A DNA stretch of 64,000 bases, taken from the NCBI RefSeq assembly GCF_002113885.1, contig NW_018408770.1, forward strand, positions 308,281 to 372,280. The letters are read 5' to 3'. The translations under genes and the position numbers were made by a program. Below are positions 1 to 57,300 of the stretch, piece after piece. Below the pieces are notes generated by a model. The model saw only the letters and a list, made by a program, of their open reading frames with translations. It was not told the DNA's origin and made no database searches. Positions within the stretch are counted from its first letter, which is position 1, and each line of letters begins with the position of its first letter. This DNA is from Mizuhopecten yessoensis (Eukaryota).

Positions 1-960
1 CATGATAGAGGGAGGGCACAGTCACGGTAGATAGGGGATATGGGCATTGTACAAGATATGGACATGGTACAGACTGATCTTAACCATGATAGAGAGAGGG
101 CACAGTCACGGTAGATAGGGGATATGGGCATTGTACAAGATATGGACATGGTACAGAGTGATCACAACCATGATAGAGAGAGGGCACAGTCACGGTAGAT
201 AGGGGATATGGGCATTGTACAAGATATGTACATGGTACAGGGTGGACACAACCATGATAGAGGGAGGGAAGGGTCATGGTAGATAGGGGATATGGGCATT
301 GTACAAGATATGGACATGGTACAGGGTGGACACAACCATGGTAGAGGGAGGTAAGGGTCATGGTAGATAAATTATATGGACATGGTACAGAGTTGACACA
401 ACCATGATAGAGGGAGGGCACAGTCACGGTAGATAGGGGATATGGGCATTGTACAAGATATGTACATGGTACAGGGTGGACACAACCATGGTAGAGGGAG
501 GTAAGGGTCATGGTAGATAAATTATATGGACATGGTACAGAGTTGACACAACCATGGTAGAGGGAGGGCACAGTCACGGTAGATAGGGGATATGGGCATT
601 GTACAAGATATGGACATGGTACAGAGTGATCTCAACCATGATAGAGGGAAGGCACAGTCATGGTAGATATAAGATATGGGCATGGCACAGAACGGACTCA
701 ACCATGGTACAGGGAGGACACATTCATGGTAGATAGGGGATATGGGCATTGTACAAGATATGGACATGGTACAGAGTGATCTCAACCATGATAGAGGGAG
801 GGCACAGTCATGGTAGATAGAAGATATGGGCATGGCACAGAGTGGACTCAACCATGGTACAGGGAGGGCACAGTCATGGTAGATAGCGGATACATGAGCA
901 TTGTACAGAGTAGACTCAACCATGGTAGAGGGAGGACAACATCGTAGAAGACAGACCTTA
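1..960. repeat. Minisatellite, 84-bp unit (four related ~21-bp CATG subunits, with ~65-bp variants), in EIF2B2 intron 4
   Basis: CATGATAGAG recurs at 1, 85, 169, 253 and onward. The array decays toward the exon 4 donor at 998. Confidence 0.9.
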
Positions 961-998
961 ACCATAGAGTTATGACACACCAATGTTAGAGGACTTAC

Positions 999-2407
999 AT
1001 GAAGGGACTCCTGTGGATCTCCCTCCTCAGACTTCCCTGCACATGCACTACAATGAGACACATTCACAGTCAGTTCCTGACTAGGCTTCATTGGCATTAC
1101 ATTTACTTTTAACAAAAATGACTCAATGACACAAATATTTTAGTTTCAACATTTTAACAAAAATTAAATTATCTATCATATGAATAGTGATAAAAAATCA
1201 GGTAAACTTAATATTTGATGAATAATTATGAAGAAGCAAAACAGACCCAATTAAAGAAAGTGAAACGCCTCAGAAAGGATTTTTTTCATGCTATTTCTTT
1301 ATTTTCCCAACCTGTAACTTCCCAGCAGCTTTTCATATTCCTTCAATTCAGGCGGTATATATTATAGGAGAAACTGAGAAAGTCAGCAGGCAAACCTGGC
1401 ATATTCCTCCCGTACAAGCTTAAGGACTCGTCGCACCATGTTACCCACAGCTGTTTCTGACGGTTGTGACATCATCATCTTCCTGCCATCCTCTTTCAGA
1501 ACCTCCATCACATCCCTGATTTAATGGTATACAGATCTCAAATAATTGTGGTCAGTACAGATAGGTGAAAAAGAACTGGACAAACTCACAATTATGACCA
1601 TATGCATAGTATTTGGATGGGAACTTTTTAGATTATTCATCTTTGACTATTCCATGATTTGAATAAATGCTTGACATTTCTACTTCTTTCTGCAATCCAC
1701 ATCAAATTAACATCATTATATCAGAGAAGAGAGCAATCTATCCATTCATAACACTAGTATTATGTGACGGATGTTTCAGTGTTGAGAATATTATACAAGT
1801 GTGGCAGATTTTAATTGTACATAGGATTATGGTTGCCTTTTAGCTTCAAACTAGTGGGAATTTACCCTTTAACTCAGTATTAGAGCATCCGACTAGGTTG
1901 GGGGGCGGTGGAAACACACTATTCTCTTTCCTGTTACACATATATGCATGTAGCTGATGCGCATGACTTTTAAAATGTACATGATTGAACTTACTTTGCA
2001 GTTTGCCATTTCCGTTGTGCTATGATTTTCCTCAGCAAGCAAACAGTCTTCAAGGCAACATAATAAGAACTTTGGCTGGTTCTGCAGAAACCAAATTTAC
2101 ATGTACATAAATATTGTTTTAACAATTTTGTGCAAACAAAGTAGTATGTACTAACCTCTACTAAACATACTTATCGCATAATATAATACAGTATCTATAA
2201 TGGCACTGGAGCAGTATATTATTACCGGGTATGTGGTTATTGTTTCCTATGGGCTGTTACCTGTGCTGCATGACACCACAATATGGTCACCGTATATAAT
2301 GCTACCAGTCAGTGTACAAATACTGATATTTACCCCTGTTTCAATTCACTAATGAAACTCTCTATCTCTTCTTTCAAGTCGTCTTTCTTGTCACTTTCAC
2401 TGGGCAT
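999..2407 (-). CDS. EIF2B2: Translation initiation factor eIF2B subunit beta, exons 1-4 (partial, continues past left edge)
   Basis: Minus-strand exons 2334-2407, 1995-2081, 1396-1515 and 999-1047, all GT-AG with consistent phase. They translate to [110 protein letters not shown], matching the eIF2B-beta N-terminus ([22 protein letters not shown], QESLH). Confidence 0.93.
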
Positions 2408-2565
2408 CTTAAATTATAAGTTTCTGTCTGCAATCTGAGGCAATCCCTTCTAACCGGAAGTAGAAATCCCCGATTTCAACCAATAAGAAAACGTCTTTTC
2501 TGCGGGATCGCAAGATGGATGCGCCCATGAAGTCAACATCGCACAACGTGTGAAACTGAAAAGTA
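2408..2565. promoter_or_regulatory. Compact bidirectional promoter of EIF2B2 and SETD9
   Basis: Divergent ATGs at 2407(-) and 2566(+). ETS-like CCGGAAG at 2454-2460, CCAAT at 2480-2484, YY1-like AAGATGG at 2512-2518. Confidence 0.7.
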
Positions 2566-5500
2566 ATGTTTTTTAAGACTATTCGAAACAAATGGAAACA
2601 GTATAAGTTCCGGTTTATACCGTGGATTGCTCTTAATCTAAAAGACAGGTAGAGTATATTTTTGACAGGTATTTCTTTGTATGTAGCAGCGTCCTTGGTT
2701 GCCCTGTTCTGGCTACGAAGTAGCGCGTGTCGTCTGCTAATTTCTGACAGGAACCATGTATACAAAACACAGACATAAAGTCTCAATTGAAAATGTTATC
2801 TAGATACTAGTGGTTTTGTTTCAGTCCCAGCCATCTGGGTCATTGCATTTTCCTTTCCTATTAAATCTGTTGTCAGACAATGGACAGAGTCAATCATAAA
2901 TGCCTTGATGTGCCATGTTCAAAACCCCCTGAATATGCCTGTTGTAGTTACAATTTTAATAATAACCACAATTAAAATTATATGTACCTTAACAAACTAA
3001 GCCCCTGAGTGTCACTTGGGTAATTTAGCTGAGAGAGCATACATGTAATTTAACTTCACAAGGCCTTTAGCTTTTCAAGTATATTCCCACACTTTTTAAA
3101 AATATGAAAGGATCATTTCAAGTATAATAGGATATTATTGAGACATTATGACTAGCTAGGTCTTAAAAAAACAAATTGTGGGAGGGTAGGTTGTTCACTT
3201 CTCACGTTTGTATTACTTTGTTAAGTATAATTGTTGTTTATGATTTAGAGACAGGGCTCTGTTACTTTCTGTGTTATTCACCCTTATGTAGGGTAGGGCT
3301 TTTCGTTCAGTGTAGGATTCCTGGCGATCAGCTGCTACGATACCGGTGTTTACACTTTTGAGACGGCCGGAAGTGGGTGATAGTAATAACAGGAATAGGT
3401 TCCCGCTCCTTGCTCATGATCACATGCTTTTAGATGGTGGGGCTGGGTTCAAGATTAACAGTTGATCACTCATCTTCGAGGCTATTTGGTGGGGGGAGCA
3501 GGGTATATAAAACAGCGGGTCCGGGCGGGGATCAGTGTCTTGACAGGGTCGGTGAGCCGACCCACTTCTCCTGGTGAGGAGAACATTACCGCCTCATGCG
3601 CTGTAAACAGTGCAAAACATGGGCCGAGGTGCTGCTAACAGTACCAATACCGTAGGACTACATGAAGTTATCGTTCCTGGGATATATAGAGTGCTATAGG
3701 AACTACAGTACATGTATTAAGGGATAGTCAGGGGCTTCGGGCTTAGGCATCGATACATGGTGATTCGCTGTAGATCTATAGGGAGCTAGGAGCACATGGT
3801 CATAGTCTACTGGTAGTACTGTTACTAGGATAGGCCATTACTCTACATACATAGGGATCAGGTTTCTTAACATTAGCTGTCATTGTTTGGCACTAATGCT
3901 ATGCTTTGTATTTGTTAAACTTGTTGTACATATTCATTCCGTCTTGTTAATAAACAGTTACTTGTATTTTAAACACCTTGTTGAGTTATTGAATCAATTG
4001 GTTGTATTACCACTACATCCAGTGTTTGAACCTGTAGTGAAAACAGGTCTGTAACCTGACGAAAGAGGCGAGGTCTAGAGAGGACTGCAGGGGAAGTTGT
4101 CGACTCGTTACCATTGCTAAAAACTATACGATCACGAAACGGATTTCACGGAGTGACAACGGATGCAAAACCCTCTCCAGACCTCCACCTATTACAAAAT
4201 AAACAATATAATAGACGTAATGATAAATAAATTATATCTCTGAATCCTTGTTATATTTTATATTTCAACGTCAATAAATATTCAAAAAGTTGAGTCAAGA
4301 TTTTAAATTGAAAACATACCTGTATAACATTACCATCTAATTTTTTTCAGGAGTGTGAGATCAGTTGCTCCCAGTGAAAAAGATAAACTATTTAACGACT
4401 CACAAGTAGAACAATTTCTCTTGCACTTTTTTGAAAATCTTGAAAAAGTAAGACAATCAAATGCTCAGACCTCAGATGATGGCGATTTGTGGAAACCTCA
4501 GAAACTCACCAAGGAAGAACAGTACCTACAACACAGAAATAACTTAAGAATGATGGAGGATTGTGTTGGCTTCATTGTAGAAAGAAAGCAAAGTTTGATA
4601 CCTGGAGGTGGAACAGGTGTGTTTGTGACAAAGGGTCAAGTACCAAAAGGAACAGTGGTGTCCATGTACCCTGGCACTTTGTACAGGCTTGGGGAACCTA
4701 TCCTGTTACAGAGCCTGGCTAACCCATTCATATTTCGCTGTATTGATGCTGTCCTAATTGATGGAAATGATAAGAATATTTCTAAATCCATTTATATGTG
4801 AGTATAACTGAAGTACGACAATTTAGCCTGCACCTTTTAATATTTATAATTTTAGATAATGTACGTCTGTTTATATCCTTAAGTCATAAAATTGTTTTTA
4901 CTTTGAAGGTTATGTCTGTTCATTGAAGGTCATGTTTGTATATTAAAGGTCATGTTTGTACATTAAGGTCATGTTTGTTGATTGAAAGTCATATTTGTGC
5001 ATTGAAGGTCATATTTGTGCATTAAAGGTCATGTTTGTACACTGAAGGTCATTTTTTTTTACATTTATGGTTACATTTGTACATTGAAGGTTATATTTGT
5101 ACTTTGAAGGTCATGTTTGTACATTGACGGTCATGTTTTTTACATTGGAGGTCATGTTTATACATTGAAGGTCATGTTTGTACATTGAAGGTCATGTTTG
5201 TACATTGAAGGTTATGTTTATACATTGCTGGTCATGTTTTTACATTGAAGGTCATATTTGTAAATTTAAGGTTATATTTGTACATGAAAGGTCATGTTTT
5301 TACATTCAAGGTCATGTTTGTACATTCAAGGTCATGTTTATATATTGAAGGTCATGTTTATATATTGAAGGTCATGTTTGTACAATAAAGATAATGTTAT
5401 TACATGGAAGGTCATATTTGTTCATTGAAGGTCATGTTTGTACATTGAAGATCATGTGGTCAGCGAGACAGACATGGACCTTACTTGACCTGTGACCTGT

Positions 5501-6324
5501 CCTGGGTTACACAATATCCCATCAATCCATTGGCTGTTGGACAGTATGTGAACAACCAATCAAAACGTAAGTACAAGCAAAACAGTTACAGCAGAACCTT
5601 CTTTCTCTGGGCATATAGTTTCTAAAGTCAAAATTAAAAATTAGGAACAACAATTTTCTTATATTACATTGTTAAGGTGACAGATGATTGTTCAATGAAG
5701 CATATATGATAAATCTATTATTAAAATAAATGTTGAATAATAAGAAGTGTTTAATTGGATTTTCCATGAGATTAACTGATTCAAAGATGGATGATATATA
5801 AGTATTGAGCTTAAATGAACAAACAAGCTTTGTTGATGTAGAAATTTGTTCTTGAATATATTTTGTTGATGATATATTTTGTTAATCTTTGAACTAATAT
5901 ATATATAACTGGCAGCTAGATTGAAAACAATTATTTGTTGGTAGTGTTTCCAGCTAATGTGGCCTACCAGGAGTTTGACATCCCTCTGCAGTTTCCCTTC
6001 CACTTAAGGAAATATATCCCTAACATCAACTATAGTTCATCTATACAGGAGATTTCAGGACAGCACAGGTGAGCTTCAAGTTGAGTAATCATATGTTATG
6101 TGATATTGTATTCGGCAAAGAAATGCAGGAAAAATTGCACGTGTTCATTAGATATTGCATTAACAGTATCTAACACAAGCAGTTTTTAAACATTTCATTT
6201 ATGTCCATCAAAACTTTGTTTTATTTTATCTTCCAGGCAGACAAGAGTTGTGGTTCTTGTGTCACTGAGGACGATTGAAGAAGGGGAAGAACTCTTCTCA
6301 AGTTATTTTACTGTTGTACATTGA
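2566..6324 (+). CDS. SETD9: SET domain-containing protein 9 (about 285 aa, 5 exons)
   Basis: Exons 2566-2648 (MFFKTIRNKWKQYKFRFIPWIALNL), 4351-4797 (GVFVTKGQVPKGTVVSMYPG, NPFIFRCIDAVLIDGNDK), 5451-5566 (NPLAVGQYVNN), 5945-6068 (ANVAYQEFD) and 6237-6324 (VVLVSLRTIEEGEELFSSYFTVVH*). Phases are consistent, and AATAAA lies at 6342-6347. Confidence 0.95.
3177..4113 (+). mobile_element. Probable solo LTR in SETD9 intron 1
   Basis: GC-richer ~940-bp block starting TGTGGG and ending GTTACCA. TATA-like TATATAAAA near 3504 and AATAAA near 3949 are in U3-R-U5 order. The TSD is ambiguous (ATTG at 3175-3178 and 4113-4116). Confidence 0.4.
4893..5457 (+). repeat. 20-bp minisatellite (about 28 copies) made of the SETD9 exon 3 acceptor junction
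   Basis: Unit TTTGTACATTGAAG|GTCATG. The last copy is the real acceptor, TTTGTACATTGAAG|ATCATGTGG, at 5450/5451. Confidence 0.92.
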
Positions 6325-6454
6325 TAGTGTGTTATGACTGAAATAAAAAAAAATACATATATTTGTGAATTCACTTATTTCTATTAACACCTGAAATGTG
6401 AATCTATTTTAAGGATGAGTCTGATTATATGTAAAATTTAATGTTCGGTATGTA

Positions 6455-6707
6455 TCACAAGGACCTGAGGATTTATTACAGCTATATTTGGACCTAAACT
6501 AAGGCGTTCAGAGTAACTTTACATGTTTTAGGGGTTTAGCTTGACTTTCGGTAAAATGCCACCCCAATGCTTATATACGAGCGTAAATGAGCATTGGGTT
6601 GGCATTTTTACTGAAAGTCGATCTAAAACCCTAAAATACAAACAATTACTCCCAACACCTTAGTTTAGGTCCAAATATAGCTGTAACCAATTCTCAGGTC
6701 CCTGTTG
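6455..6707. mobile_element. Foldback MITE (whole element is an imperfect palindrome), TA flanks
   Basis: ACAAGGACCTGAG..TTACAGCTATATTTGGACCTAAACTAAGG is mirrored by CCTTAGTTTAGGTCCAAATATAGCTGTAA..CTCAGGTCCCTGT. TA at 6453-6454 and 6708-6709. Confidence 0.85.
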
Positions 6708-7519
6708 TATGTAGGTATTGGGAGATATCACGTTTTATTCTCAAATAATCCACATCATAGTGACTCAAACATTCTGTTCTGAGTCTGGTTTCTTTTGTTA
6801 TTTAGAACACATTCGTAACATGAGATCATTATACAATACACGATTTGTACTTTCACTTCAAATACATTTATATGACCTATCCTAAATTAGGGTTTTGTCC
6901 TTAGCCTCTGTATTTTATCATTTTCTCTGTTACCGCTAATTTTCCGAATTTTTGTAAACTTAAATATGGTCATTATTTTATTGCTATTATCGATTAAAAG
7001 TAACTAAATAAAATACGGAGAGTGTATTATATGTGGTAATCTTAGCTCGTTTTGATACGTGTATAAGTCCCATCTCCATAAAAGTAAGCTGTTCTGGGGC
7101 CATAATATTTCTACTTGGGGATGCAGGACTTGTCTACTTCAAATATAGTATATATGATGTGCCTTCCTCAGCGACACGCGTACATAAATAGGTTCCACCT
7201 TTTAGTTGACCCTGATAGGTAAAGTTGTTTGACTTTAAAGACAGCTTAAGTACGGACTTGCGCTTGATCCAAAACCGCATTTTATAACTGTGATACTTTC
7301 ATTGTTGTTACACGCTGTTCGGTTTTGTCTGATTTGAATGTCTGTGTCGAAACCAATGACGGATTACGAAAACGCAAGGAAAAGTGGGCACATACCGTGC
7401 TGTATGTTATCAAGTAAAATATGTGAGGGCGAGAAAAGGAAGGTACTGAACTGGAAAATTCATCAATACTCGTAAGGAAGATATATGACATTTTTAAATC
7501 TTTGTTCGTGCAATCTTAA

Positions 7520-8120
7520 AAATATATGTACATTTCCTCAGCAGGTTTAAACATATTCTATTGCCAAAAAAATGCAAAAGGATTGGGTACAAGTTACATG
7601 AACATTATTAACGCCCTTTCCTCAGCAAGTTCCTCTATAAGCATTACAAGAAGAAATTGCGTTCATTTTTTGGCTCTTATTTTTCGTTTTATTGCTCCAG
7701 AAATAGTTGTCATACATAAGTTTTAGTTCTTAGTGCTGCTTACTTTCTTTTGTGTAATCTTTCTGTTTTATGCTGTACACTCCTAATTATTGTTTCATAA
7801 ATGTTTGTTTGTTGTTTTAGATTATGCTATATTAGCATGTATTCTGTCAATTTTTAGTTTTCGGCATATTGGCATATATGTACATTAGACTGAAACGTCT
7901 CTTAAATTAATATACATGCTGCATGAGCTTTATGTTTGCATGACCTTTAATCTCCGTGCTATTTTACTTTTTATTCAACTTTATGTGATGCATGCTACCT
8001 TTGTGATATTTTGTTGTTTCTATTAATTTTTATTTTTATATAGTCGTAAGGTTAGCTCTTCTGAGCTAAAGTTGCATTGTTACAAACATGACTCTAACTA
8101 AGAATTCTTGTATCTTGTAT
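7520..8120 (+). mobile_element. Possible degenerate LINE (CR1/L2-like) 3' end
   Basis: T-rich 3' UTR-like tract, hairpin TTAGCTC..GAGCTAA at 8072-8089, and a short tandem tail TCTTGTATCTTGTAT. Confidence 0.35.
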
Positions 8121-9669: not shown

Positions 9670-10680
9670 ATTGGTGGCATCGTAAAGGCATCAAGGTTAT
9701 GTTTATGACAACACACAGGCATAACCCCGCCATTGGTGGCATCGTAAAGGCATCAACGTTATGTTTATGACAGCACATAGGCATTACTCCGCCATTGGTG
9801 GCATCGTTAAGGCATCAAGGTTATGTTTATGACAACACACAGGCATAACCCCGCCATTGGTGGCATCGTAAATGCATCAAAGTTATTTTTATGACAGCAC
9901 ACAGGCATAACCCCGCCATTGGTGGCATCGTAAATGCATCAAAGTTATGTTTATGACACCACACAGGCATAACCCCGCCATTGGTGGCATCGTAAAGGCA
10001 TCAAAGCTATGTTTATGACAGCACACAGGCATAACCCCGCCATTGGTGGCATCGTAAATGCATCAAAGTTATGTTTATGACACCACACAGGCATTACCCC
10101 GCCATTGGGGGCATCGTAAAGGCATCAAAGTTATGTTTATAACAGCACACAGGCATTACCCCGTCATTGGTTGCATCGAAAAGGCATCAAAGTTATGTTT
10201 ATGACAGTACACAGGCATTACCCCGCCATTGGTGGCATCGGTAAGGCATCAAAGTTATGTTTATGACAGTACACAGGCATTACCCCGCCATTGGTGGCAT
10301 CGTTAAGGCATCAAGGTTATGTTTATGACAGCACACAGGCATTACCCCGACATTGGTGGCATCGTAAAGGCATCAAGGTTATGTTTATGGCAACACACAG
10401 GCATAACCCCGCCATTGGTGGCATCGTAAATGCATCAAAGTTATTTTTATGACAGCACACAGGCATAACCCCGCCATTGGTGGCATCGTAAATGCATCAA
10501 AGTTATTTTTATGACAGCACACAGGCATAACCCCGCCATTGGTGGCATCGTAAAGGCATCAAAGTTATGTTTATGTCAGCACACAGGCATTACCCCGTCA
10601 TTGGTGGCCTCGTAAAGGCATCAAAGTTATGTTTATGACAGCACACAGGCATTACCCCGTCATTGGTGGCATCACAAAGG
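9670..10680. repeat. 62-bp minisatellite, about 16 copies
   Basis: Unit CATTGGTGGCATCGTAAAGGCATCAAAGTTATGTTTATGACAGCACACAGGCATTACCCCGC, period 62 (9731 to 9793). Confidence 0.95.
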
Positions 10681-13934: not shown

Positions 13935-14555
13935 ATCCGGAATACCCCCTCAATACCCCTTAAACGTGTGACTCCAGAATACCCCATCAATACGCCTCAA
14001 ACATGTGACTCCGGTATACCCCCTTAAACATGTGACTCCGGAAAACCCTCTCAAACATTTGACTTCGGAATATCCCTCAAACATGTGACTCCGGAATACC
14101 CCCTCAATACCCCTCAAACACGTGACTGCGTAATACCCCCTCAATACTCCTCAAAAACGTGACTGAGGAATACCCCATGCCCCTCAAACATGTGACTCCG
14201 GAATAACCCAACAATACCCCTAAAACATGTGACTCCGGAATACCCCCTCAAACATGTGACTCCGGAATACCCCTCAAACATGTGATTCCGGAATACCCCC
14301 TCAATACCCCTCAAACATGTGACTGAGGAATACATCCATGCCCTTCAAACAGATGACTCAAAAATACCCCTTCATTACCCTTCAAACATGTGACTCCGGA
14401 ATACCCCATCAATACCCCTCAAACATGTGACTCCGGAATACCCCCTCAAACATGTGACTCCGGAATACCCCCTCAAACATGCGACTCCGGAATACCCCCT
14501 CAATACCCCTCAAACATGTGACTGAGGAATACCCCCATGTCCCTCAAACATGTGC
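13935..14555. repeat. ~28-bp minisatellite with 11-bp sub-duplications
   Basis: Unit AATACCCCCTCAAACATGTGACTCCGG with interspersed AATACCCCCTC. Confidence 0.9.
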
Positions 14556-14978: not shown

Positions 14979-17900
14979 ACATTGGGGTCGTAGAACATTG
15001 GTTTGTGTGGCCTAGAACATTGGTTTGTGTGGCCTAGAACATTGGTGTGTGTGGCCGTACGTAGAACATTTGCGTGTGTGGCCGTAGAACATTGGTTTGT
15101 GTGGCCGTACGTAGAACATTGGTTTGTGTGGCCGTACGTAGAACATTGGTTTGTGTGGCCGTACGTAAAACATTGGTTTGTGTGGTCGTAGAACATGCGT
15201 TTGTGTGGCCTAGTACATTGGTTTGTGTGGCCGTACGTAGAACATTGGTTTGTGTGGCCGTACGTAGAACAATGGTTTGTGTGGCCGTATAACATTGGTT
15301 TGTGTGACCTTAGAACATTGGTTTGTGTGACCGTAGAGCATTGGTTTGTGTGACCGTATAACATTGGTGTGTGTGGCAGTAGAACATTGGTTTGTGTGAC
15401 CGTATAACACTGGTTTGTGTGGCCGTAAAACATTGGTTTGTGTGGTCGTATAACATTGGTTTGTGTGGCCGTACGTAGATTATTGAGGTCTGTGGCCGTC
15501 CGTACAACATTGGTTTGTGTGGTCGTAGAACATTGGTTTGTGTGTTCGTAGAACATTGGTTTGTGTGGCAGTAGAACATTGGTTTGTGTGGTCGTATAAC
15601 ATTGGTTTGTGTGGCCGTACGTAGATTATTGAGGTGTGTGGCCGTACGTACAACATTGGTTTGTGTGGTCGTAGAACATTGGTTTGTGTGGCCGTAGAAC
15701 ATGGGTTTGTGTGACCGTATAACATTGGTTTGTGTCGCCGTAGAACATTGGTTTGTGTGGCCGTAGAACATTGGTTTGTGTGCCCGTAGAACATTGGTTT
15801 GTGGGGTCGTATAACATTGGTTTGTGTGACCGTATAAGACTGGTTTGTGTGGCCGTAGAACATTGGTGTGTTTGACCGTAGAACATTGGTTTGTGTGGTC
15901 GTATAACATTGGTTTGTGTGGCCGTACGTAGATTATTGGTGTGTGTGGCCGTACGTACAACATTGGTTTGTGTGGTCGTAGAACATTCGTTTGTGTGACC
16001 GTATAACATTGGTTTGTGTCGTCGTAGAACATTCGTTTGTGTGGTCGTAGAACATTGGTTTATGTGGCCGTAGAGCATGGGTTTGTGTCGCCGTAGAACA
16101 TTCGTTTGTGTACCCGTAGAACATTGGTTTGTGTGGCCTAGTACATTGGTGTGTGTTGCCGTAGAACATTGGTGTGTGTGGCCGTAGAACATTGGTGTGT
16201 TTGACCGTAGAACATTGGTTTGTGTGGCCGTAGAACATAGGTTTGTGTGGCCGTAGAACATTGGTTTGTGTGACCGTATAACATTGGTGTGTGTGACCGT
16301 AGAACATTGGTTTGTGTGACCGTAGAACATTGGTTTGTGTGACCGTATAACATTGGTGTGTGTGACCGTAGAACATTGGTTTGTGTGACCGTAGAACATT
16401 GGTTTGTGTGACCGTAGAACATTGGTTTGTGTGACCGTAGAACATTGGTTTGTGTGACCGTAGAACATTGGTTTGTGTGACCGTATAACATTGGTTTGTG
16501 TGGCCGTAGAACATTGGTTTGTGTGGCCTGAAACAATGGTTTGTGTAGCCGTAGAACATTGATTTGTTTTACCGTAGAACATAGGTTTGTGTGGTCGTAG
16601 AACATGGGTTTGTGTGGCCTAGTACATTGGTTTGTGTGGTCGTACGTAGAACATTGGTTTGTGTGGCCGTAGAACATTGGTTTGGGTGACCGTATAACAT
16701 TGGTTTGTGTGGCAGGACGTAGATTATTGGTGTGTGTGGCCGTGCGTAGAACATTGGTTTGTGTGGTCGTAGAACATGAGTTTGTGTGGCCGTAGAACAT
16801 GGGTTTGTGTGGTCGTACGTAGAACATTGGTTTGTGTGGCCGTACAACATTGGTGTGTGTGGCCTAGTTTATTGGTTTGTGTGGCCTGAAACATTGGTGT
16901 GTGTGGCCGTAGAACATTGGTGTGTGTGACCGTATAACATTGGTTTGTGTCGCCGGACGTAGATTATTGGTGTGTGTGGCCGTGCGTAGAACATTGGTTT
17001 GTGTGGTCGTAGAACATTGGTTTGTGTGGCCGTATAACATTGGTTTGTGTGGCCGGACGTAGATTATTGGTGTGTGTGGCCGTACGTAGAACATTGGTTT
17101 GTGTCGCCGTAGAACATTCGTTTGTGTGGTCGTAGAACATTGGTTTATGTGGCCGTAGAGCATGGGTTTGTGTCGCCATATCACATGGGTTTGTGTAGCC
17201 GTAGAACATTGGTTTGTGTGACCTAGTACATTGGTGTGTGTGGCCGTAGAACATCGGTGTGTGTGGCCGTAGAACATTGGTTTGTGTGGCCGTAGAACAT
17301 TGGTGTGTGTGGCCTAGTTTATTGGTTTGTGTGGCCTGAAACATTGGTGTGTGTGGCCGTAGAACATTGGTGTGTGTGGCCGTAGAACATTGGTTTGTGT
17401 GGCCTTAGAACATTGGTTTGTGTGGCCTGAAACGTTGGTGTGTGTGGCCGTAGAACATTTGTTTGTGTGACCGTAGAACATTGGTTTGAGTGCCCTGAAA
17501 CAATGGTTTGTGTAGCCGTAGAAGGTTTGTGTGGTCGTATAACATTGGTTTGTGTGGCCGTAGAACATTGGTGTGTGTGGCCGTAGATTATTGGTTTGTG
17601 TGGCCTTAGAACATTGGTTTGTGTGGCCGTAGAACATTGGTTTGGGTGGCCTGAAACAATGGTTTGTGTAGCCGTAGAACATTGGTTTGTTTTACCGTAG
17701 AACATGGGTTTGTGTGGTCGTAGAACATCTGTTTGTGTGGCCTAGAACATTGGTGTGTTTGACCGTAGAACATTGCTTTGTGTGGCCGTAGAACATTGGT
17801 TTGTGTGCCATTAGAACATTGGTTTGTGTGGCCTGAAACAATGGTTTGTTTTGCCGTAGAACATTGGTTTGTTTTACCGTAGGACATGGGTTTGTGTGGT

Positions 17901-19525
17901 CGTAGAACATCTGTTTGTGTGGCCTAGAACATTGGTGTCGTATAACACTGGTTTGTGTGGCCGTAGAACATTGGTTTGTGGGACAGTAGAACATTGGTTT
18001 GTGTGGCCTGAAACGTTGGTGTGTGTGGCCGTAGAACATTGGTTTGTGGGACAGTAGAACATTGGTTTGTGTGGCCTGAAACAATGGCTTGTGTAGCCGT
18101 AGAACATTGGTTTGGTTTACCGTAGAACATTGGTTTGTGTGGTCGTAGAACATGGGTTTGTGTGGCCTAGTATATTGGTTTGTGTGGTCGTACGTAGAAC
18201 ATTGGTTTGTGTGGTCGTAGAACATGAGTTTGTGTGGCCGTAGAACATGGGTTTGTGTAGCCGTAGAACATGGGTTTGTGTGGCCGTAGAACATTAGTTT
18301 GTGTGGCCGTAGAACATTGGTTTGTGTGGCCGTAGAACATTGGTTGGTGTGGCCTGAAACAATGGTTTGTGTATCCGTAGAACATTGGTTTGTTTTACCG
18401 TAGGACATGGGTTTGTGTGGTCGTAGAACATCTGTTTGTGTGGCCTAGAACATTGGTGTGTTTGGCCGTAGAACATTGGTTTGTGTGGCCTGAAACATTG
18501 GTGTGTGTGGCCGTAGAACATTGGTTTGTGTGACATTAGAACATTGGTTTGTGTGGCCTGAAACAATGGTTTGTGTAGCCGTAGAACATTGGTTTGTTTT
18601 ACCGTAGAACATTGGTTTGTGTGGTCGTAGAACATGAGTTTGTGTGGCCGTAGAACATGGGTTTGTGTGGTCGTACGTAGAACATTGGTTTGTGTGGTCG
18701 TACGTAGAACATTGGTTTGTGTGGTCGTAGAACATGGGTTTGTGTGGCCTAGTATATTGGTTTGTGTGGTCGTACGTAGAACATTGGTTTGTGTGGTCGT
18801 AGAACATTGGTTTGTGTGGCCGTAGAACATGGGTTTGTGTGGCCGTAGAACATTAGTTTGTGTGGCCGTAGAACATGGGTTTGTGTAGCCGTAGAACATG
18901 GGTTTGTGTGGCCGTAGAACATCGGTTTGTGTGCCGTAGAACATTGGTTTGTGTGGCCTGAAACATTGGTGTGTGTGGCCGTAGAACATTGTTTTGTTTT
19001 ACCGTAGAACGTTGGTTTGTGTGGCCTAGAACATTGGTGTGTTTGACCGTAGAACATTGGTTTGGGTGGTCGTAGAACATTGGTGTGTGTGGCCGTGGAA
19101 CATTGGTTTGTGTTGCCTGAAACAATGGTTTGTGTAGCCGTAGAACATTGGTTTGTTTTACCGTAGAACATTAGTTTGTGTGGCCGTAGAACATGGATTT
19201 GTGTAGCCGTAGAACATGGGTTTGTGTGGCCATAGAACATTGATTTGTGTGGCCGTAGAACATGGGTTTGTGTGGCCGTAGAACATTAGTTTGTGTGGCC
19301 GTAGAACATGGGTTTGTGTGACCGTAGAACATGGGTTTGTGTGGCCATAGAACATTAGTTCGTGTGGCCGTAGAACATGGGTTTGTGTGGCTGTAGAACA
19401 TTGGTGTGTGTGGCCGTAGCACATTGGTTTGTGTGGTCGTAGAACATTGGTGTGTGTGGCCTAGTACATTGGTTTGTGTGGCCGTAGAACATTGGTGTGT
19501 GTGGCCGTAGAATATTGTTTTGTGT
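14979..19525. repeat. 23-bp satellite, about 4.5 kb (roughly 190 copies)
   Basis: Unit GGCCGTAGAACATTGGTTTGTGT with indel variants. It produces the many HTNQCST/HKPMFYG ORFs. Confidence 0.97.
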
Positions 19526-29535: not shown

Positions 29536-30053
29536 TTCTGAGAACGCTATTGTTGTTGTTTTCATCGTCATTGCCTTATCATACAAGTCCCAAAAGAAAG
29601 GGCTTCTTTATTTATTAAAACTATCAGTCATAACGGTATTCATGTTTACAGTTATTGACAGTGGTATGTACGGGGATCCTTCAAACGATTCAATGACTTA
29701 AATGGCTTCATCAGCACATGGCGAGTTCGGATTAATTTGTCTTTTTCTCAATTTTATTTTGTGTAGAAATCGTTTTCGTGCTGCGCGGATTGTACAGATC
29801 CTAATGAATCGGACAGTATTTGCTCCAAACCGTTTGCAGACTTTTGGATATGTTTACAGATGGGGAACAAGAGAAATTAATGTGCAAGTAAACAACAAAA
29901 ACTGGTATATAATATAAACTGGGACTGGGAATGTAAAAGGTCTAAGGTTAACACATTTTTTTCTCATTACAGGTAGAGGTATATGATACAGACGGAAGAC
30001 AGACTCGTTACAGACAGCGGTATACGTAACGGACGGAGGACAGATATACAGTC

Positions 30054-30665
30054 ATGTCCAAACTGACAGTGGAGGCGTTGGAACAGCACCACGAGACTAA
30101 CACACGTACCAGGCGTCTGTCCGTCTTCAATAAAGATGGGTCGGACAGCACGGGGCTCAATGTAACGGGGCCAAACCTGCGTCGGCTCTCCCGGCCTGAT
30201 CACAGACTCAGCGTACAGTACGGTTACACAGGTAGGCGGCCGTCCCAGGTCTCAAGGACAAGCATCTCTGGGTCGGTGGGGCCAAAACACATTGGAATAC
30301 CAATCAAACTACAGAACACATACAGACTCGAACCTCTTCCCAAAGAGAAGTTCGACCCGTCAAAAGTAAATACCATTATGTATAACGTCCTGGAATCTTA
30401 CCTTGATGGTGAGAAATACGACCCTAAAATGTGTTCAAATCTCGCTCAGAACCTCACAGACGTTATAAAGAATCGCGTGAAGGAGCTTGGTTATGTGCGC
30501 TACAAACTTGTCTGCAACGTCATAATTGGTGAAAACTCCGCGCAGGGCATGCGCGTAGCCAGTCGCTGTCTCTGGGACGACAGTACAGACAGTTACGCGC
30601 AAGCAAGTTACTCCAAGGGACAGATCTACGCCGTGGCCACTGTGTATGCAACCTATTTTGATTAG
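30054..30665 (+). CDS. Tctex-1 domain dynein light chain (TCTEX1D/DYNLT5-like), 203 aa, single coding exon
   Basis: LQNTYRLEP..F, YDPKMCSNLAQNLTDVIKNRVKELGYVRYKLVCNVIIGE, ASRCLWDDSTDSYAQASY and YAVATVYATYFD are Tctex-1 family signatures. The acceptor TTTTTTCTCATTACAG at ~29972 implies upstream non-coding exon(s). Confidence 0.92.
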   Translation: MSKLTVEALEQHHETNTRTRRLSVFNKDGSDSTGLNVTGPNLRRLSRPDHRLSVQYGYTGRRPSQVSRTSISGSVGPKHIGIPIKLQNTYRLEPLPKEKFDPSKVNTIMYNVLESYLDGEKYDPKMCSNLAQNLTDVIKNRVKELGYVRYKLVCNVIIGENSAQGMRVASRCLWDDSTDSYAQASYSKGQIYAVATVYATYFD

Positions 30666-34349: not shown

Positions 34350-37300
34350 TCATAACTCGTCGTTGGTAGCTGTATTATCACCTTTTAATGTTTCCAACAC
34401 TGCCTTCATGCTTTTAACAACTGAAAAAGAAACATTCACTATAAGCGTTAGCATTCAACAAAACTACTGCAATGAGTAAGTGTTCAATTTAATAAGAAAC
34501 CCTAATTGAGCACCAGCGTTTATCATATATAGAAACCCTAGTTGAGCACCAGCGTTTATCATATATAGAAACCCTAGTTGAGCACCAGCGTTTATCATAT
34601 ATAGAAACCCTTATTGAGCACCAGCGTTTATCATATATAGAAACCCTAGTTGAGCACCAGCGTTTATCATATATAGAAACCCTAATTGAGCACCAGCGTT
34701 TATCATATATAGAAACCCTTATTGAGCACCAGCGTTTATCATATATAGAAACCCTAGTTGAGCACCAGCGTTTATCATATATAGAAACCCTAATTGAGCA
34801 CCAGCGTTTATCATATATAGAAACCCTTATTGAGCACCAGCGTTTATCATATATAGAAACCCTAGTTGAGCACCAGCGTTTATCATATATAGAAACCCTA
34901 ATTGAGCACCAGCGTTTATCATATATAGAAACCCTTATTGAGCACCAGCGTTTATCATATATAGAAACCCTAGTTGAGCACCAGCGTTTATCATATATAG
35001 AAACCCTAATTGAGCACCAGCGTTTATCATATATAGAAACCCTTATTGAGCACCAGCGTTTATCATATATAGAAACCCTAGTTGAGCACCAGCGTTTATC
35101 ATATATAGAAACCCTAATTGAGCACCAGCGTTTATCATATATAGAAACCCTTATTGAGCACCAGCGTTTATCATATATAGAAACCCTAATTGAGCACCAG
35201 CGTTTATCATATATAGAAACCCTAATTGAGCACCAGCGTTTATCATATATAGAAACCCTTATTGAGCACCAGCGTTTATCATATATAGAAACCCTAATTG
35301 AGCACCAGCGTTTATCATATATAGAAACCCTAATTGAGCACCAGCGTTTATCATATATAGAAACCCTTATTGAGCACCAGCGTTTATCATATATAGAAAC
35401 CCTAATTGAGCACCAGCGTTTATCATATATAGAAACCCTTATTGAGCACCAGCGTTTATCATATATAGAAACCCTAGTTGAGCACCAGCGTTTATCATAT
35501 ATAGAAACCCTAATTGAGCACCAGCGTTTATCATATATAGAAACTCTAATTGAGCACAAGCGTTTATCATATATAGAAACCCTTATTGAGCACCAGCGTT
35601 TATCATATATAGAAACCCTAATTGAGCACCAGCGTTTATCATATATAGAAACCCTTATTGAGCACCAGCGTTTATCATATATAGAAACCCTAATTGAGCA
35701 CCAGCGTTTATCATATATAGAAACCCTAATTGAGCACCAGCGTTTATCATATATAGAAACCCTAATTGAGCACCAGCGTTTATCATATATAGAAACCCTA
35801 ATTGAGCACCAGCGTTTATCATATATAGAAACCCTTATTGAGCACCAGCGTTTATCATATATAGAAACCCTAATTGAGCACCAGCGTTTATCATATATAG
35901 AAACCCTTATTGAGCACCAGCGTTTATCATATATAGAAACCCTAATTGAGCACCAGCGTTTATCATATATAGAAACCCTAATTGAGCACCAGCGTTTATC
36001 ATATATAGAAACCCTAATTGAGCACCAGCGTTTATCATATATAGAAACCCTAATTGAGCACCAGCGTTTATCATATATAGAAACCCTAATTGAGCACCAG
36101 CGTTTATCATATATAGAAACTCTAATTGAGCACAAGCGTTTATCATATATAGAAACCCTTATTGAGCACCAGCGTTTATCATATATAGAAACCCTAGTTG
36201 AGCACCAGCGTTTATCATATATAGAAACCCTAGTTGAGCACCAGCGTTTATCATATATAGAAACTCTAATTGAGCACAAGCGTTTATCATATATAGAAAC
36301 CTTTATTGAGCACCAGCGTTTATCATATAAAGAAACCCTAGTTGAGCACCAGCGTTTATCATATATGGAAATACTTGTTGAGCACCAACGTTTATCATAT
36401 TTAGAAACTCTAATTGAGCACCAGCGTTTATCATATATAGAAACTCTAATTGAGCACCAGCGTTTATCATATATAGAAACTCTAATTGAGCACCAGCGTT
36501 TATCATTTATAGAAACTCTAATCGAGCACCCGCTTTTATCATATATAGAAACTCTTATTGAGCACCAGCATTTATCATATATAGAAACCCTAATTGAGCA
36601 CCAGTGTTTATCATATATAGAAACTCTAATTGAGCACCAGCGTTTATCATATATAGAAACCCTAATTGAGCACCAGCTTTTATCATAAAAAGAAACCCTA
36701 GTTGAGCACCAGCGTTTATCATACATAGAAACCCTTATTGAGCACCAGCGTTTATCATATATAGAAAACCATGTTGAGTACCAGTGTTCATCTTAAAACC
36801 AGTGTTAAACATTACCAGGAACACTATTTGGACATACTTACATGCATCACTAAAAACACATACATTGATTATAGGTTAGTAAGAGATCACATTTCAGTCA
36901 TGTTCAAATTGCAAGCGTTTTGCTTTTGATACACAGATCTTCCCTACAACCATTCAAACATATATCGAGAATATATCATGACAAAAATGAACTATGGAGG
37001 CTCTGTTCACGACACTTTGAAGATGATACAAGTAGACCAGTTTGTCTATTGTTGACATCAAAAGGATCTAGCAGCAGCATAGTGGTAAAATTGACCAGCT
37101 CTGAAGTTGGGTGCCACTCTACAAGAGATAATCCTGGAGGGGGCCATGAGGTCATGACTCCTTCATGTTCCAATTTTTGAATTTTACATGGAATGACCCC
37201 TCTTAATTTTGATATTGACCAAAAATTGCTGAAATGGCCCACTGCTCTCAAATTCCATGATTTCCCCTGCTCCTCATAATTTTCAAAGGACACGTGTCAG

Positions 37301-54300: not shown

Positions 54301-57300
54301 GTTATACTTAGGGTTTAGCAGGAAGAGGGGCCCACTGGGTTAGTTGAATTTGTATGCCACTTGGCTCAACCAGCCCCATATCAGAATTGTAGCTGACGAG
54401 GTCCAGAAGATATTATTTTAATAATGAATGTACATGACGCGTCAGTTTCGTTTAATACTGTATGTTTTTACAAGGCCTGGCTGTCACTGTTACATTATTA
54501 TTTATATGTGTATAAAGGGCCTGGCTGTCACTGTTACATTATTATTTATATGTGTATAAAGGGCCTGGCTGACCCCCTGAACTCTGCCTTCCACTTGACC
54601 TACAACATGGTGCTGAACCTGCTGCGAGTGGAGGAGATCAATCCGGAGTACATGCTGGAGCGATCCTTCTATCAATTCCAGAACTACGCAGCTATTCCCG
54701 ATCTATGTGAAAGTAAGTATAGATCTAGCAACCACCTCTTGTAAATATTTGGTCCCTTAAGAGTTGCCATATTGAATATAATCCTGAAGTGTATTTCTGT
54801 GGTACTACTATGCACACTTGCCAATTCTTCCTATTTTGTAAGGAGACTTCTGACTTTATTTTGGAAATCAGCAGAATTACCTTCATCTTTATTTTTGCTC
54901 AAGTTCTATTATTTCTTAGGGGAAAACGTATAGCTTAAGCAATGACAATGTACTTTAATATTCTGTCAAATCGTCACTACAATTTCTGTCTAGACTTTGT
55001 TTTTAGTATGGGGTACTATATTGAGACAAATCGTTTATTTTGTCAGAATTAAAGAAGTTGGAGGAGGACTATGCTAACGTAGAGGTTCCAAATGAGGACC
55101 AGGTCGGACCCTACTTTAAAATAAGACAACAGTTGGACAACCTCGGCAAGGAGCTTCTACTGTATATACAGAAACCACAGTACTTACTGCCCTTCTTACA
55201 ACCAGGCAGGGTTATCAAGGTAAATCTTCAACCTGGCAGGGTTATCCAGGTAAATCTTACAACCTGGCAGGGTTATCCAGGTTAATCTTACAACCAGGCA
55301 GGGTTATCAAAGTAAATCCTACAACCTGGCAGGGTTATCAAGGTAAATCTTACAACCAGGTATGGTTATCAATGTAAATCTTACAACCAGGCAGTGTTAT
55401 CAAGGTAAATCTTACAACCAGGTATGGTTATCAAGGTAAATCTTACAACCAGGCATGGTTATCAAGGTAAATCTTACAACCAGGCATGGTTATCAAGGTA
55501 AATCTTACAACCAGGCAGGGTTATCAAGGTAAATCTTACAACCTGGCAAGGCTATCAAGGTAAATCTTACAACCTGGCAAGGTTATCAAGGTAAATCTTA
55601 CAACCTGGAAGGGTTATCAAGGTAAATCTTACAACATTGGAGGTTTATCAAAGTAAATCTTTAATCAGGCAGGGTTATCAAACAACCAGGCAGGGTAATC
55701 AAGGTAAACCTTTCAACCAGGTATGGTTATCAAGGTAAATCTTACAACCAGGCAGGTTTATCCAGGTATATCTTACAACCTGGCAAGTTTATCAAGGTAA
55801 ATCTTACAACCAGGCAGGGTTATCAAGGTAAATCTTACAACCTGGCAGGGTTATCAAGGTAAATCTTACAACCAGGCAGGTTTATCAAGGTAAATCTTAC
55901 AACCAGGCAAGGCTATCAAGGTAAATCTTACAACCTGGCAAGGCTATCAAGGTAAATCTTACAACCTGGAAGGGTTATCAAGGTAAATCTTACAACATTG
56001 GAGGTTTATCAAAGTAAATCTTTAACCAGGCAGGGTTATCAAACAACCAGGCAGGGTAATCAAGGTAAACCTTTCAACCAGGTATGGTTATCAAGGTAAA
56101 TCTTACAACCAGGCAGGTTTATCCAGGTATATCTTACAACCAGGCAGGGTTATCAAGGTAAATCTTACAACCTGACAGGGTTATCAAGGTAAATCTTACA
56201 ACCAGGCAGGTTTATCAAGGTATATCTTACAACCTGGCAAGTTTATCCAGGTATATCTTACAACCTGGCAAGTTTATCCAGGTAATTCTTACAACCTGGC
56301 AGGGTTATCAAGGTAAAAGCTACAGCCTGGCAGGGTTATCAAGGTAAATTGTACAACCTAGCAGGGTTATCAAGGTAAATCTTACAACATTGGTGGTTTA
56401 TCAAAGTAAATCTTTAACCAGGCAGCGTTATCAAACAACCAGGCAGGGTTATCAAGGTAAATCTTTCAACCAGGTATGGTTATCAAGGTAAATCTTACAA
56501 CCAGGCAGGTTTATCCAGGTATATCTTACAAACTGGCAGGGTTATCCAGGTAAATCATACAACCAGGCAGGTTTATCCAGTTAAATCTTACAACCAGGCA
56601 GGGTTATCCAGTTAAATCTTACAACCAGGCAGGTTTATCCAGTTAAATCTTACAACCAGGCAGGTTTATCCAGGTAAATCTAACAACCAGGCAGGTTTAT
56701 CCAGGTAAATCTTACAACCAGGCAGGTTTATCAAGGTAAATCTTACAACCAGACAGGTTTATCCAGTTAAATCTTACAACCAGGCAGGTTTATCAAGGTA
56801 AATCTTACAACCAGGCAGGTTTATCAAGGTAAATCTAACAACCAGACAAGTTTATTGAGGTAAATCTTACAACCAGGCAGGTTTATTCAGGTAAATCTTA
56901 CAACCAGGCAGGTTTATCAAGGTAAATCTAACAACCAGGCAGGTTTATCCAGGTAAATCTTACAACCAGGTAGGGTTATCAAGGCAAATCTTACAACCAG
57001 GTAGGGTTATCAAGGCAAATCTTACAGCCAGGTAGGGTTATCAAGACAACTCAATATCTGGTACCTTCTGTCTTTCTCATGACATTGTTTCATAATTATT
57101 ATATACATGTTTAAATTAGTAAATTGTTCATCGTTAACTACCTGTATGCGATTCAAATGAATACTTTTCAAAACATACACAACAAAACTAGCAGATAAGT
57201 GAAATGTTGACCAGATGACAGAATCATTCTGCATCACTGATTCTGTGTATTTTTAAATGATATAACTCAGATAATTTTTGAGGTTTTTCCCGAAATACAT

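What the first reader, a model, noticed from the sequence alone, without database searches (positions are those of the whole stretch)
4893..5457. SETD9 exon 3 acceptor copied about 28 times, most decoys being AG|GT sites
Most decoys read ..TTGAAG|GTCATG, whereas the true site reads ..TTGAAG|ATCATG. They are therefore an acceptor followed directly by GT, the architecture of recursive splice points. Decoys 20 or 40 nt upstream frameshift, and the frame-preserving 60-nt extension reads into CAT-TGA, a stop, so mis-selection should yield NMD substrates. The true site has no better polypyrimidine tract than the decoys.
Basis: partly seen in the sequence, partly recalled or inferred. Interest (0 to 1): 0.7.

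Follow-up and report, generated by a model that had tools for sequence, protein, structure and literature searches.

The report
Scallop SETD9 splice-acceptor "mirage" minisatellite
In a scallop SETD9 gene, a 20-base piece spanning the end of an intron and the start of the next exon is repeated 27 extra times; the RNA seen joins mostly at the last, real copy, with one likely slip to the copy next to it, so this is likely a tolerated repeat of a kind known from lancelets and not a stepwise-splicing device.

Summary
The array is real: 28 units of 20 nt (13 intron + 7 exon bases). Of 27 decoys, 23 keep AG and 22 read AG|GT; use of any gives a premature stop. It is a 'mirage' minisatellite, described in amphioxus, with human donor-side analogues (F7, ABCA7). 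This scan noted the type before (33 notes, 11 or more genomes, two donor arrays in this genome).

Recursive splicing is unlikely. After a first splice the regenerated donor would be TAT|GTCATG, weaker than all 25 real donors in the window, and the intron is 653 nt. The GT is likely the wobble base of an ancestral Lys codon plus Ser TCA; other scallops have Lys there.

RNA: contigs of 5 runs and 5 raw reads join 4797 to 5451. Two more raw reads, probably one fragment, start exactly at the -20 decoy. Depth arithmetic indicates exon 2 was spliced to it, so some leak probably occurs, as with ABCA7; the rate is unknown.

A rough survey found boundary-spanning arrays at 18 of 301 donor edges and 3 of 288 acceptor edges. 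Ordinary kind, modest interest.

The parts
2566..2648 (+). SETD9 first coding exon (ATG 2566, donor CAG|GTAGAG)
   Evidence: tblastn, spliced fit, joint in RNA contigs of 3 runs
4351..4797 (+). SETD9 exon 2; ends in phase 2 with ...TAT AT
4798..4803 (+). Intron 2 donor TAT|GTGAGT (weak exonic part, strong intronic part)
   Evidence: RNA loose ends at 4797; score 5.9
4850..4892 (+). Two possible older, degenerate units (TAG|ATAATG at 4856, AAG|TCATAA at 4884); tentative
   Evidence: read from the sequence; acceptor scores 5.6 and 3.3
4893..5457 (+). 20-nt minisatellite, 28 units, each 13 intron + 7 exon bases of the intron 2/exon 3 boundary; 27 decoys (23 AG, 22 AG|GT)
   Evidence: unit found only here
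4907..4908 (+). AG of the 5'-most decoy, best-scoring acceptor of the array (8.8); likely keeps the original upstream intron context
   Evidence: score; origin inferred
5389..5390 (+). AG of the -60 decoy, AAG|ATAATG: in frame, immediate TAA
5421..5425 (+). Predicted branch point TTCAT (A5424, -27 from exon 3), made by a variant of the second-last unit; too close to the -20 AG to serve it
   Evidence: motif scan; not unique, 12 of 23 AG decoys also have a YTNAY so placed; untested
5429..5430 (+). AG of the -20 decoy; two raw reads start exactly at 5431; use shifts the frame, stop ends at 5488
   Evidence: (junction inferred from depth)
5449..5450 (+). True acceptor AAG|ATCATG
   Evidence: 5 raw reads and contigs of 5 runs
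5451..5566 (+). SETD9 exon 3, 116 nt
5945..6068 (+). SETD9 exon 4
   Evidence: (start)
6237..6321 (+). SETD9 last coding exon (coding part)

Best explanation
The array is a tandem expansion of SETD9's own intron 2/exon 3 boundary (a 'mirage' minisatellite) that is likely tolerated clutter: the RNA seen joins exon 2 mostly to the last copy, likely because only that copy carries the whole exon and lies nearest the exon 3 donor, with a likely low-level slip to the adjacent copy that would be degraded by NMD. Shown: local origin of the unit, main junction 4797-5451, premature stops for every decoy. Inferred: (1) origin by slippage or unequal crossing-over, as for the many other minisatellites here; (2) selection by exon definition, since both flanking introns exceed 250 nt and each decoy has only 7 exon bases, possibly helped by a branch point at A5424; (3) the decoy G is the older third base of a Lys codon (AA|G TCA) or a change in the founder copy, so AG|GT is incidental; (4) the -20 slip, from one probable fragment.
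For: Same anatomy as the BflGb6 acceptor mirage, where splicing is undisturbed. Unit unique to the locus; copies differ from consensus by 0-7 of 20 bases with no higher-order period. The same window has two more in MTR4: donor 55194-57045 (61 copies) and acceptor 54474-54571 (2 copies). Survey: 18 of 301 donor and 3 of 288 acceptor edges spanned by an array. RNA: contigs of 5 runs from 5 studies (word depth 3.6-68.8) and 5 raw reads show 4797-5451; no read lay in 5371-5430. The junction residue is R or K in 208 of 211 homologues with the motif, and K in the three other scallops. With long flanking introns the bias to the upstream 3' site is reduced (PMC9225289 section 9). One-unit retention at about 2%, independent of length, is known for ABCA7.
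Against: 2 of 7 junction-edge raw reads in X23 start at the -20 decoy; if that share is typical (1 of about 5 fragments, 95% interval 0.5-72%) the array is not neutral. Exon definition only reduces the upstream preference in the human data, and decoys at 4909-5048 are within 250 nt of the donor, the first with the best score; why they stay unused is inferred, not shown. No acceptor array with exon bases and 8 or more copies turned up among 288 edges, a hint that such arrays are costly. The Gs of AG|GT vary in 1 of 27 copies each, against 6-11 of 27 at the other five G/C positions, though controls make this unremarkable. RNA depth is low and contigs drop rare forms.
Confidence: 0.8

Rival explanations
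1. Functional unproductive splicing: the decoys, above all the -20 one, divert a sizeable, regulated or length-dependent share of SETD9 transcripts into NMD and so set gene dose.
For: Two reads at the -20 decoy among 7; one also reaches the exon 3/4 junction, so it is further spliced RNA. All 23 decoys give stops at least 71 nt before the next junction. ABCA7 VNTR length changes splicing of a neighbouring exon.
Against: Probably a single fragment from one run; contigs of 5 runs show only the true junction; no other rung seen. In ABCA7 the one-unit retention did not depend on length. Stops are expected from any AT-rich 20-mer.
Confidence: 0.09
2. Recursive (ratchet) splicing: exon 2 is joined to a decoy AG, the exposed GT is re-used as donor, and the intron is removed in steps.
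For: 22 of 27 decoys are AG|GT. The -20 product could be an intermediate. Recursive splicing also occurs, as a minor stochastic mode, in human introns under 1 kb.
Against: Regenerated donors score -0.3 to -4.0, below all 25 real donors (3.7-12.5), and lack both -1G and +5G. Weak ratchet donors are not re-used in fly alleles; the RS-exon is kept. From the -20, -40 and -60 sites the remaining intron would be 60 nt or less. Recursive sites have strong 3' motifs and lie in long introns; these are AAG acceptors in a 653-nt intron. About half of AGG and GGT positions in control arrays are as invariant.
Confidence: 0.04
3. Incipient intron gain or micro-exon source: a decoy AG and a later decoy AAG|GT define a small exon inside the array (the model drawn for mirages in PMC3087553).
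For: In its native AAG context the decoy donor scores 4.9, above 2 of 25 real donors. Five in-frame, stop-free cassettes of 39-120 nt are possible. Units at 5171 and 5191 are identical to 5431-5450, so the '+20' reads could be a 20-nt micro-exon.
Against: No contig or read shows such a cassette; an insertion would fall in the conserved IY(K/R)SC stretch; the adjacent-acceptor reading of the +20 reads needs one splice, not two.
Confidence: 0.04
4. The array is wholly silent, and the two reads at 5431 are a library artefact (template switch on the shared GT) or come from a variant allele.
For: Only 2 nt of microhomology are needed; the letters before 5431 were not printed; there is no DNA from the same animal.
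Against: The break falls exactly at a canonical GT..AG pair, and the 150-nt read model reproduces all 20 depth bins checked in both orientation classes, both median loose lengths and the exon 2 end bin (0.57 = 48/84).
Confidence: 0.03

Closest known systems
Amphioxus 'mirage' minisatellites: globins BflGb6 (acceptor) and BflGb9, Adh3, troponin C, PGBD5 (PMC3087553 and PMC3902484, passages read; Canestro et al. 2002 seen only as a reference)
   Same: Tandem copies of an intron/exon boundary, many keeping AG or GT; unit 10-72 nt in Adh3; terminal copy is the real exon; normal mRNA made.
   Different: A bivalve; 28 copies against 3-6 in BflGb6; only 7 exon bases per unit; decoys differ from the live site at +1, giving AG|GT; probable use of the adjacent decoy in one fragment. 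Length polymorphism not tested.
Human ABCA7 intron 18 25-bp VNTR (PMC5954066, passages and section 21 read)
   Same: Unit contains the splice site; retention of one unit shifts the frame and the product is NMD-sensitive (about 2%, independent of length).
   Different: Donor side; ABCA7 has a shown length effect on skipping of the next exon and on disease risk; no such data here.
Human F7 intron 7 37-bp VNTR (PMC1557585, abstract and outline read)
   Same: First unit spans the exon/intron boundary; identical pseudo-sites are functional but normally silent; the exon-attached site wins.
   Different: Donor side, explained by 5'-3' scanning; here the chosen site is the last one transcribed, so scanning order cannot be the reason.
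Recursive splice sites / ratchet points of Drosophila and human (PMC6110457, PMC8605326, PMC10156609, passages read)
   Same: AG immediately followed by GT inside an intron.
   Different: Those are single, conserved, strong sites, mostly in long introns, with a strong regenerated donor; here 22 weak copies 20 nt apart in a 653-nt intron with a very poor regenerated donor.

Membership tests
Mirage minisatellite | Tandem unit spans a real exon/intron boundary of the host gene | tested here: met
   13 intron + 7 exon bases; junction shown in RNA
Mirage minisatellite | Unit derived locally, not a dispersed repeat | tested here: met
   4 genome matches, all in the array
Mirage minisatellite | Many but not all copies keep the splice dinucleotide | tested here: met
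   23 of 27 keep AG
Mirage minisatellite | Normal mRNA still made through the authentic site | tested here: met
   contigs of 5 runs and 5 raw reads; a probable minor -20 form besides
Mirage minisatellite | Length instability between alleles or cells | not tested
   no DNA runs of other animals were laid; one assembly only
Recursive splice site | AG|GT core inside an intron | tested here: met
   22 of 27 decoys
Recursive splice site | Strong donor regenerated after the first step | tested here: not met
   -0.3 to -4.0 against 3.7-12.5; lacks -1G and +5G (matrix from only 24 introns)
Recursive splice site | Strong YAG acceptor, typically in a long intron | tested here: not met
   AAG acceptors, 653-nt intron; short-intron exceptions exist
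Recursive splice site | Selective conservation of the site | tested here: inconclusive
   low variation at the two Gs, but about half of control AGG/GGT positions are as invariant; no orthologous intron DNA available
Recursive splice site | Lariats or nascent intermediates using the internal GT | not testable with these tools
   no lariat or nascent RNA data; the -20 reads show only a first-step-like product

The most novel reading that the evidence does not exclude
Acceptor mirages are the costly kind: they are several times rarer than donor mirages in this genome, and this long one leaks a large share (tens of percent before NMD) of SETD9 mRNA to the adjacent decoy, so array length and single-base variants in the last units act as a heritable dial on SETD9 dose and give a natural test of how the last of many equal 3' splice sites is chosen.
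Probability: 0.1. Interest if true: 0.55.

Novelty: new member of a known kind. Interest (0 to 1): 0.27.

Why it matters
As it stands it is one more case showing that splice-site-spanning minisatellites are common in marine invertebrates; my searches (listings only) found no paper on them in bivalves. It is a compact natural test of 3' splice-site choice: 23 equal or better acceptors are transcribed before the real one, so first-come scanning cannot explain the result. Measurable leak to the adjacent copy and the donor/acceptor imbalance would say how much such repeats cost and whether intronic repeat length can tune gene dose in a farmed species.

Tried and rejected
Recursive splicing: rejected on regenerated donor strength, spacing and intron size. 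Selection on AG|GT: seemed present but disappeared against control arrays (of 114 arrays with 8 or more copies, this one and near-invariant ones were left out; 53% of 163 AGG and 50% of 181 GGT positions were as invariant). A unique branch point as the discriminator: A5424 fits, but 12 of 23 AG decoys also have a well-placed YTNAY and only 14 of 25 real introns have one. RNA structure: the true acceptor is not more open than the decoys (0.32 against 0.31-0.61). Purine-rich enhancer density is not higher in exon 3 than in the array. Higher-order periodicity: none. Dispersed repeat or transposon origin: rejected. The loose 'array end near exon edge' count was only weakly above random (18 of 273 against 10.8 +/- 3.2, p = 0.028), so I relied on by-eye classes. 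The run search listed no holder on record as RNA; the lays supplied the evidence. In one search the X11 contig ends at 4797, but its onward letters were not shown, so it is not counted. Pfam did not recognise exons 2 or 3 alone and P0243 only weakly. Canestro 2002 and Zhuo 2007 are not held. No supplements were read; Additional file 4 of PMC3087553 would show the BflGb6 decoys.

Full report
What is there. The window comes from a 988-Mb animal genome. The gene is SETD9; its exons match P0243, labelled Mizuhopecten yessoensis, at 99-100%. A spliced fit gives introns 2649-4350, 4798-5450, 5567-5944 and 6069-6236. Most of the 653-nt intron 2 is a 20-nt minisatellite (4893-5457, 28.1 copies, 81% matches) whose last unit runs 7 bases into exon 3. 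Of 27 decoys, 23 keep AG, 22 as AG|GT and one (-60) as AG|AT. A 28-base piece of the array matches 4 places in the genome, all inside it, so the unit was copied from this boundary. Copies differ from the consensus by 0-7 of 20 bases with no higher-order period.

Are the decoys plausible acceptors? Yes. On a matrix from the window's 24 other introns (a small set; one tied MTR4 junction was set by hand) the true site scores 2.4 and 19 of 23 AG decoys score at least that; the 5'-most decoy is best at 8.8. Every decoy would give a stop 71-600 nt before the end of exon 3, with two junctions downstream, which meets the 50-55 nt NMD rule (recalled, from mammals).

What RNA shows. Contigs of 5 runs from 5 studies (X10, X12, X8, X7, X14; RNA by the tool's guess) join 4797 to 5451; a sixth (X11) ends at 4797 with its onward letters not shown. 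In the one raw-read run (X23, 19% read), 11 reads lay on 5371-5670: 5 join exon 2 to 5451, none lies in 5371-5430, and 2 start exactly at 5431, the -20 decoy. Their upstream letters were under the listing threshold. A model of 150-nt reads reproduces all 20 depth bins checked in both orientation classes and both median loose lengths. It gives one of the two reads 77 nt of exon 2, and the exon 2 end bin is 0.57 = (46+2)/84, as expected if that read continues with GT, while the other class is 1.52 = (46+46+36)/84. I therefore infer an exon 2-5431 junction, probably from one fragment. The rate is unconstrained (1 of about 5 fragments, 0.5-72%). A 20-nt micro-exon, a variant allele or a template switch are not excluded.

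Recursive splicing. After a first step the new donor is exon 2's end plus the decoy's start, TAT|GTCATG. Such donors score -0.3 to -4.0 against 3.7-12.5 for real ones, and lack both -1G and +5G, unlike all 25 real donors. Fly ratchet points with weakened donors are not re-used (PMC8605326 passages); recursive sites are strong and lie mainly in long introns (PMC6110457 passages), though a minor stochastic mode occurs in short human introns (PMC10156609 passages). The two Gs vary little among copies (1 of 27 each, against 6-11 at other G/C positions), but about half of the same contexts in control arrays are as invariant. The GT has a plain source. The intron splits a codon that is Arg or Lys in 208 of 211 homologues with the motif (217 examined, 6 without it) and Lys in three other scallops, followed by Ser. 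Exon +1 was thus an A/G wobble base before TCA. The decoys likely keep an older G, or a founder copy gained it; here the codon is AT|A, Ile.

Why the last copy wins (inferred). Each decoy has only 7 exon bases, and both flanking introns exceed 250 nt. In human data long flanking introns reduce the preference for the upstream 3' site, and sites closest across the exon are favoured (PMC9225289 section 9). A variant in the second-last unit makes a TTCAT with A5424 at -27, too near the -20 AG to serve it, but 12 of 23 decoys have a similar motif. Folding and purine-rich motif density do not separate the true site.

Context. MTR4 in the same window has a 61-copy donor array and a 2-copy acceptor array. 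I surveyed exon edges of kinase domains (273 edges, 59 loci, one duplicate locus dropped) and myosin heads (316 edges, 38 loci). By eye, arrays spanned 11 of 143 and 7 of 158 donor edges, and 1 of 130 and 2 of 158 acceptor edges, all three acceptor cases with 2 copies. Three more arrays (7-27 copies) repeat the acceptor end without exon bases. Fisher p is 0.001, or 0.02 with those three. Edges are approximate, some are not splice sites, paralogues are not independent and assembly gaps may hide arrays, so these are rough rates.

Known kin. Tandem copies of exon/intron boundaries are the 'mirages' of amphioxus; BflGb6 is an acceptor case, and splicing is reported undisturbed (PMC3087553 passages; PMC3902484 passages). 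Human F7 (abstract) and ABCA7 (passages and section 21) are donor-side analogues; ABCA7 retains one unit at about 2%, NMD-sensitive and independent of length. Searches listed no paper on this in bivalves. Earlier scan notes report the type in 11 or more genomes and twice at donors in this one; I had reached the reading before looking and treat them as leads only.

Verdict. A real, ordinary acceptor mirage; new member of a known kind. Tolerated clutter with a small leak 0.80; regulatory NMD dial 0.09; recursion 0.04; micro-exon source 0.04; wholly silent with artefact reads 0.03. Interest 0.27.

Noticed in passing
window 55194-57045 (+): MTR4/MTREX donor mirage: 31-nt unit, about 61 copies, spanning the donor AAG|GTAAAT at 55219.
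   Followed up: partly
window 54474-54571 (+): MTR4 acceptor duplicated once (44-nt unit, 2.2 copies, AAG|GGCCTG at 54562); an AAG acceptor like the SETD9 one.
   Followed up: partly
window 59185-62060 (+): 62-nt x 46 array that starts 15-19 nt after an MTR4 donor without including it.
   Followed up: no
window 4796-4797 and 5451: The junction codon is Ile where 208 of 211 SETD9 homologues have Arg or Lys; RNA confirms the bases.
   Followed up: partly
L072 (+) 3158-3482; L069 (-) 5056-5430; L088 (-) 6073-7809 (strand coordinates): In three kinase donor mirages the exon-attached copy looks worse than the decoys (GG or CT in place of GT, or a non-conserved last exon base); could be assembly error, a null allele or copy mis-ordering.
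   Followed up: no
kinase and myosin loci L036-L133: Donor-spanning arrays (18 of 301 edges) outnumber acceptor-spanning ones (3 of 288); several more arrays begin or end within 20 nt of a splice site.
   Followed up: partly
window 5378-5417 (+): The units carrying the -60 and -40 acceptors are among the more decayed (4 of 20 changes each) while the last two are near consensus; weak, post hoc hint of selection against nearby decoys.
   Followed up: no
window 30030-30665 (+): Open frame with a Tctex-1 domain (Pfam PF03645, E 3.6e-31).
   Followed up: partly
window 3177-4169: SETD9 intron 1 holds a multi-copy repeat that recruits many divergent contigs.
   Followed up: no
window 1-938, 9670-10680, 13939-14554, 14989-19525, 34495-36792: Further large minisatellites (units 23-150 nt); host genes not identified; the 36-nt array is open in one frame on each strand for over 700 codons, likely by chance of its unit.
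   Followed up: no
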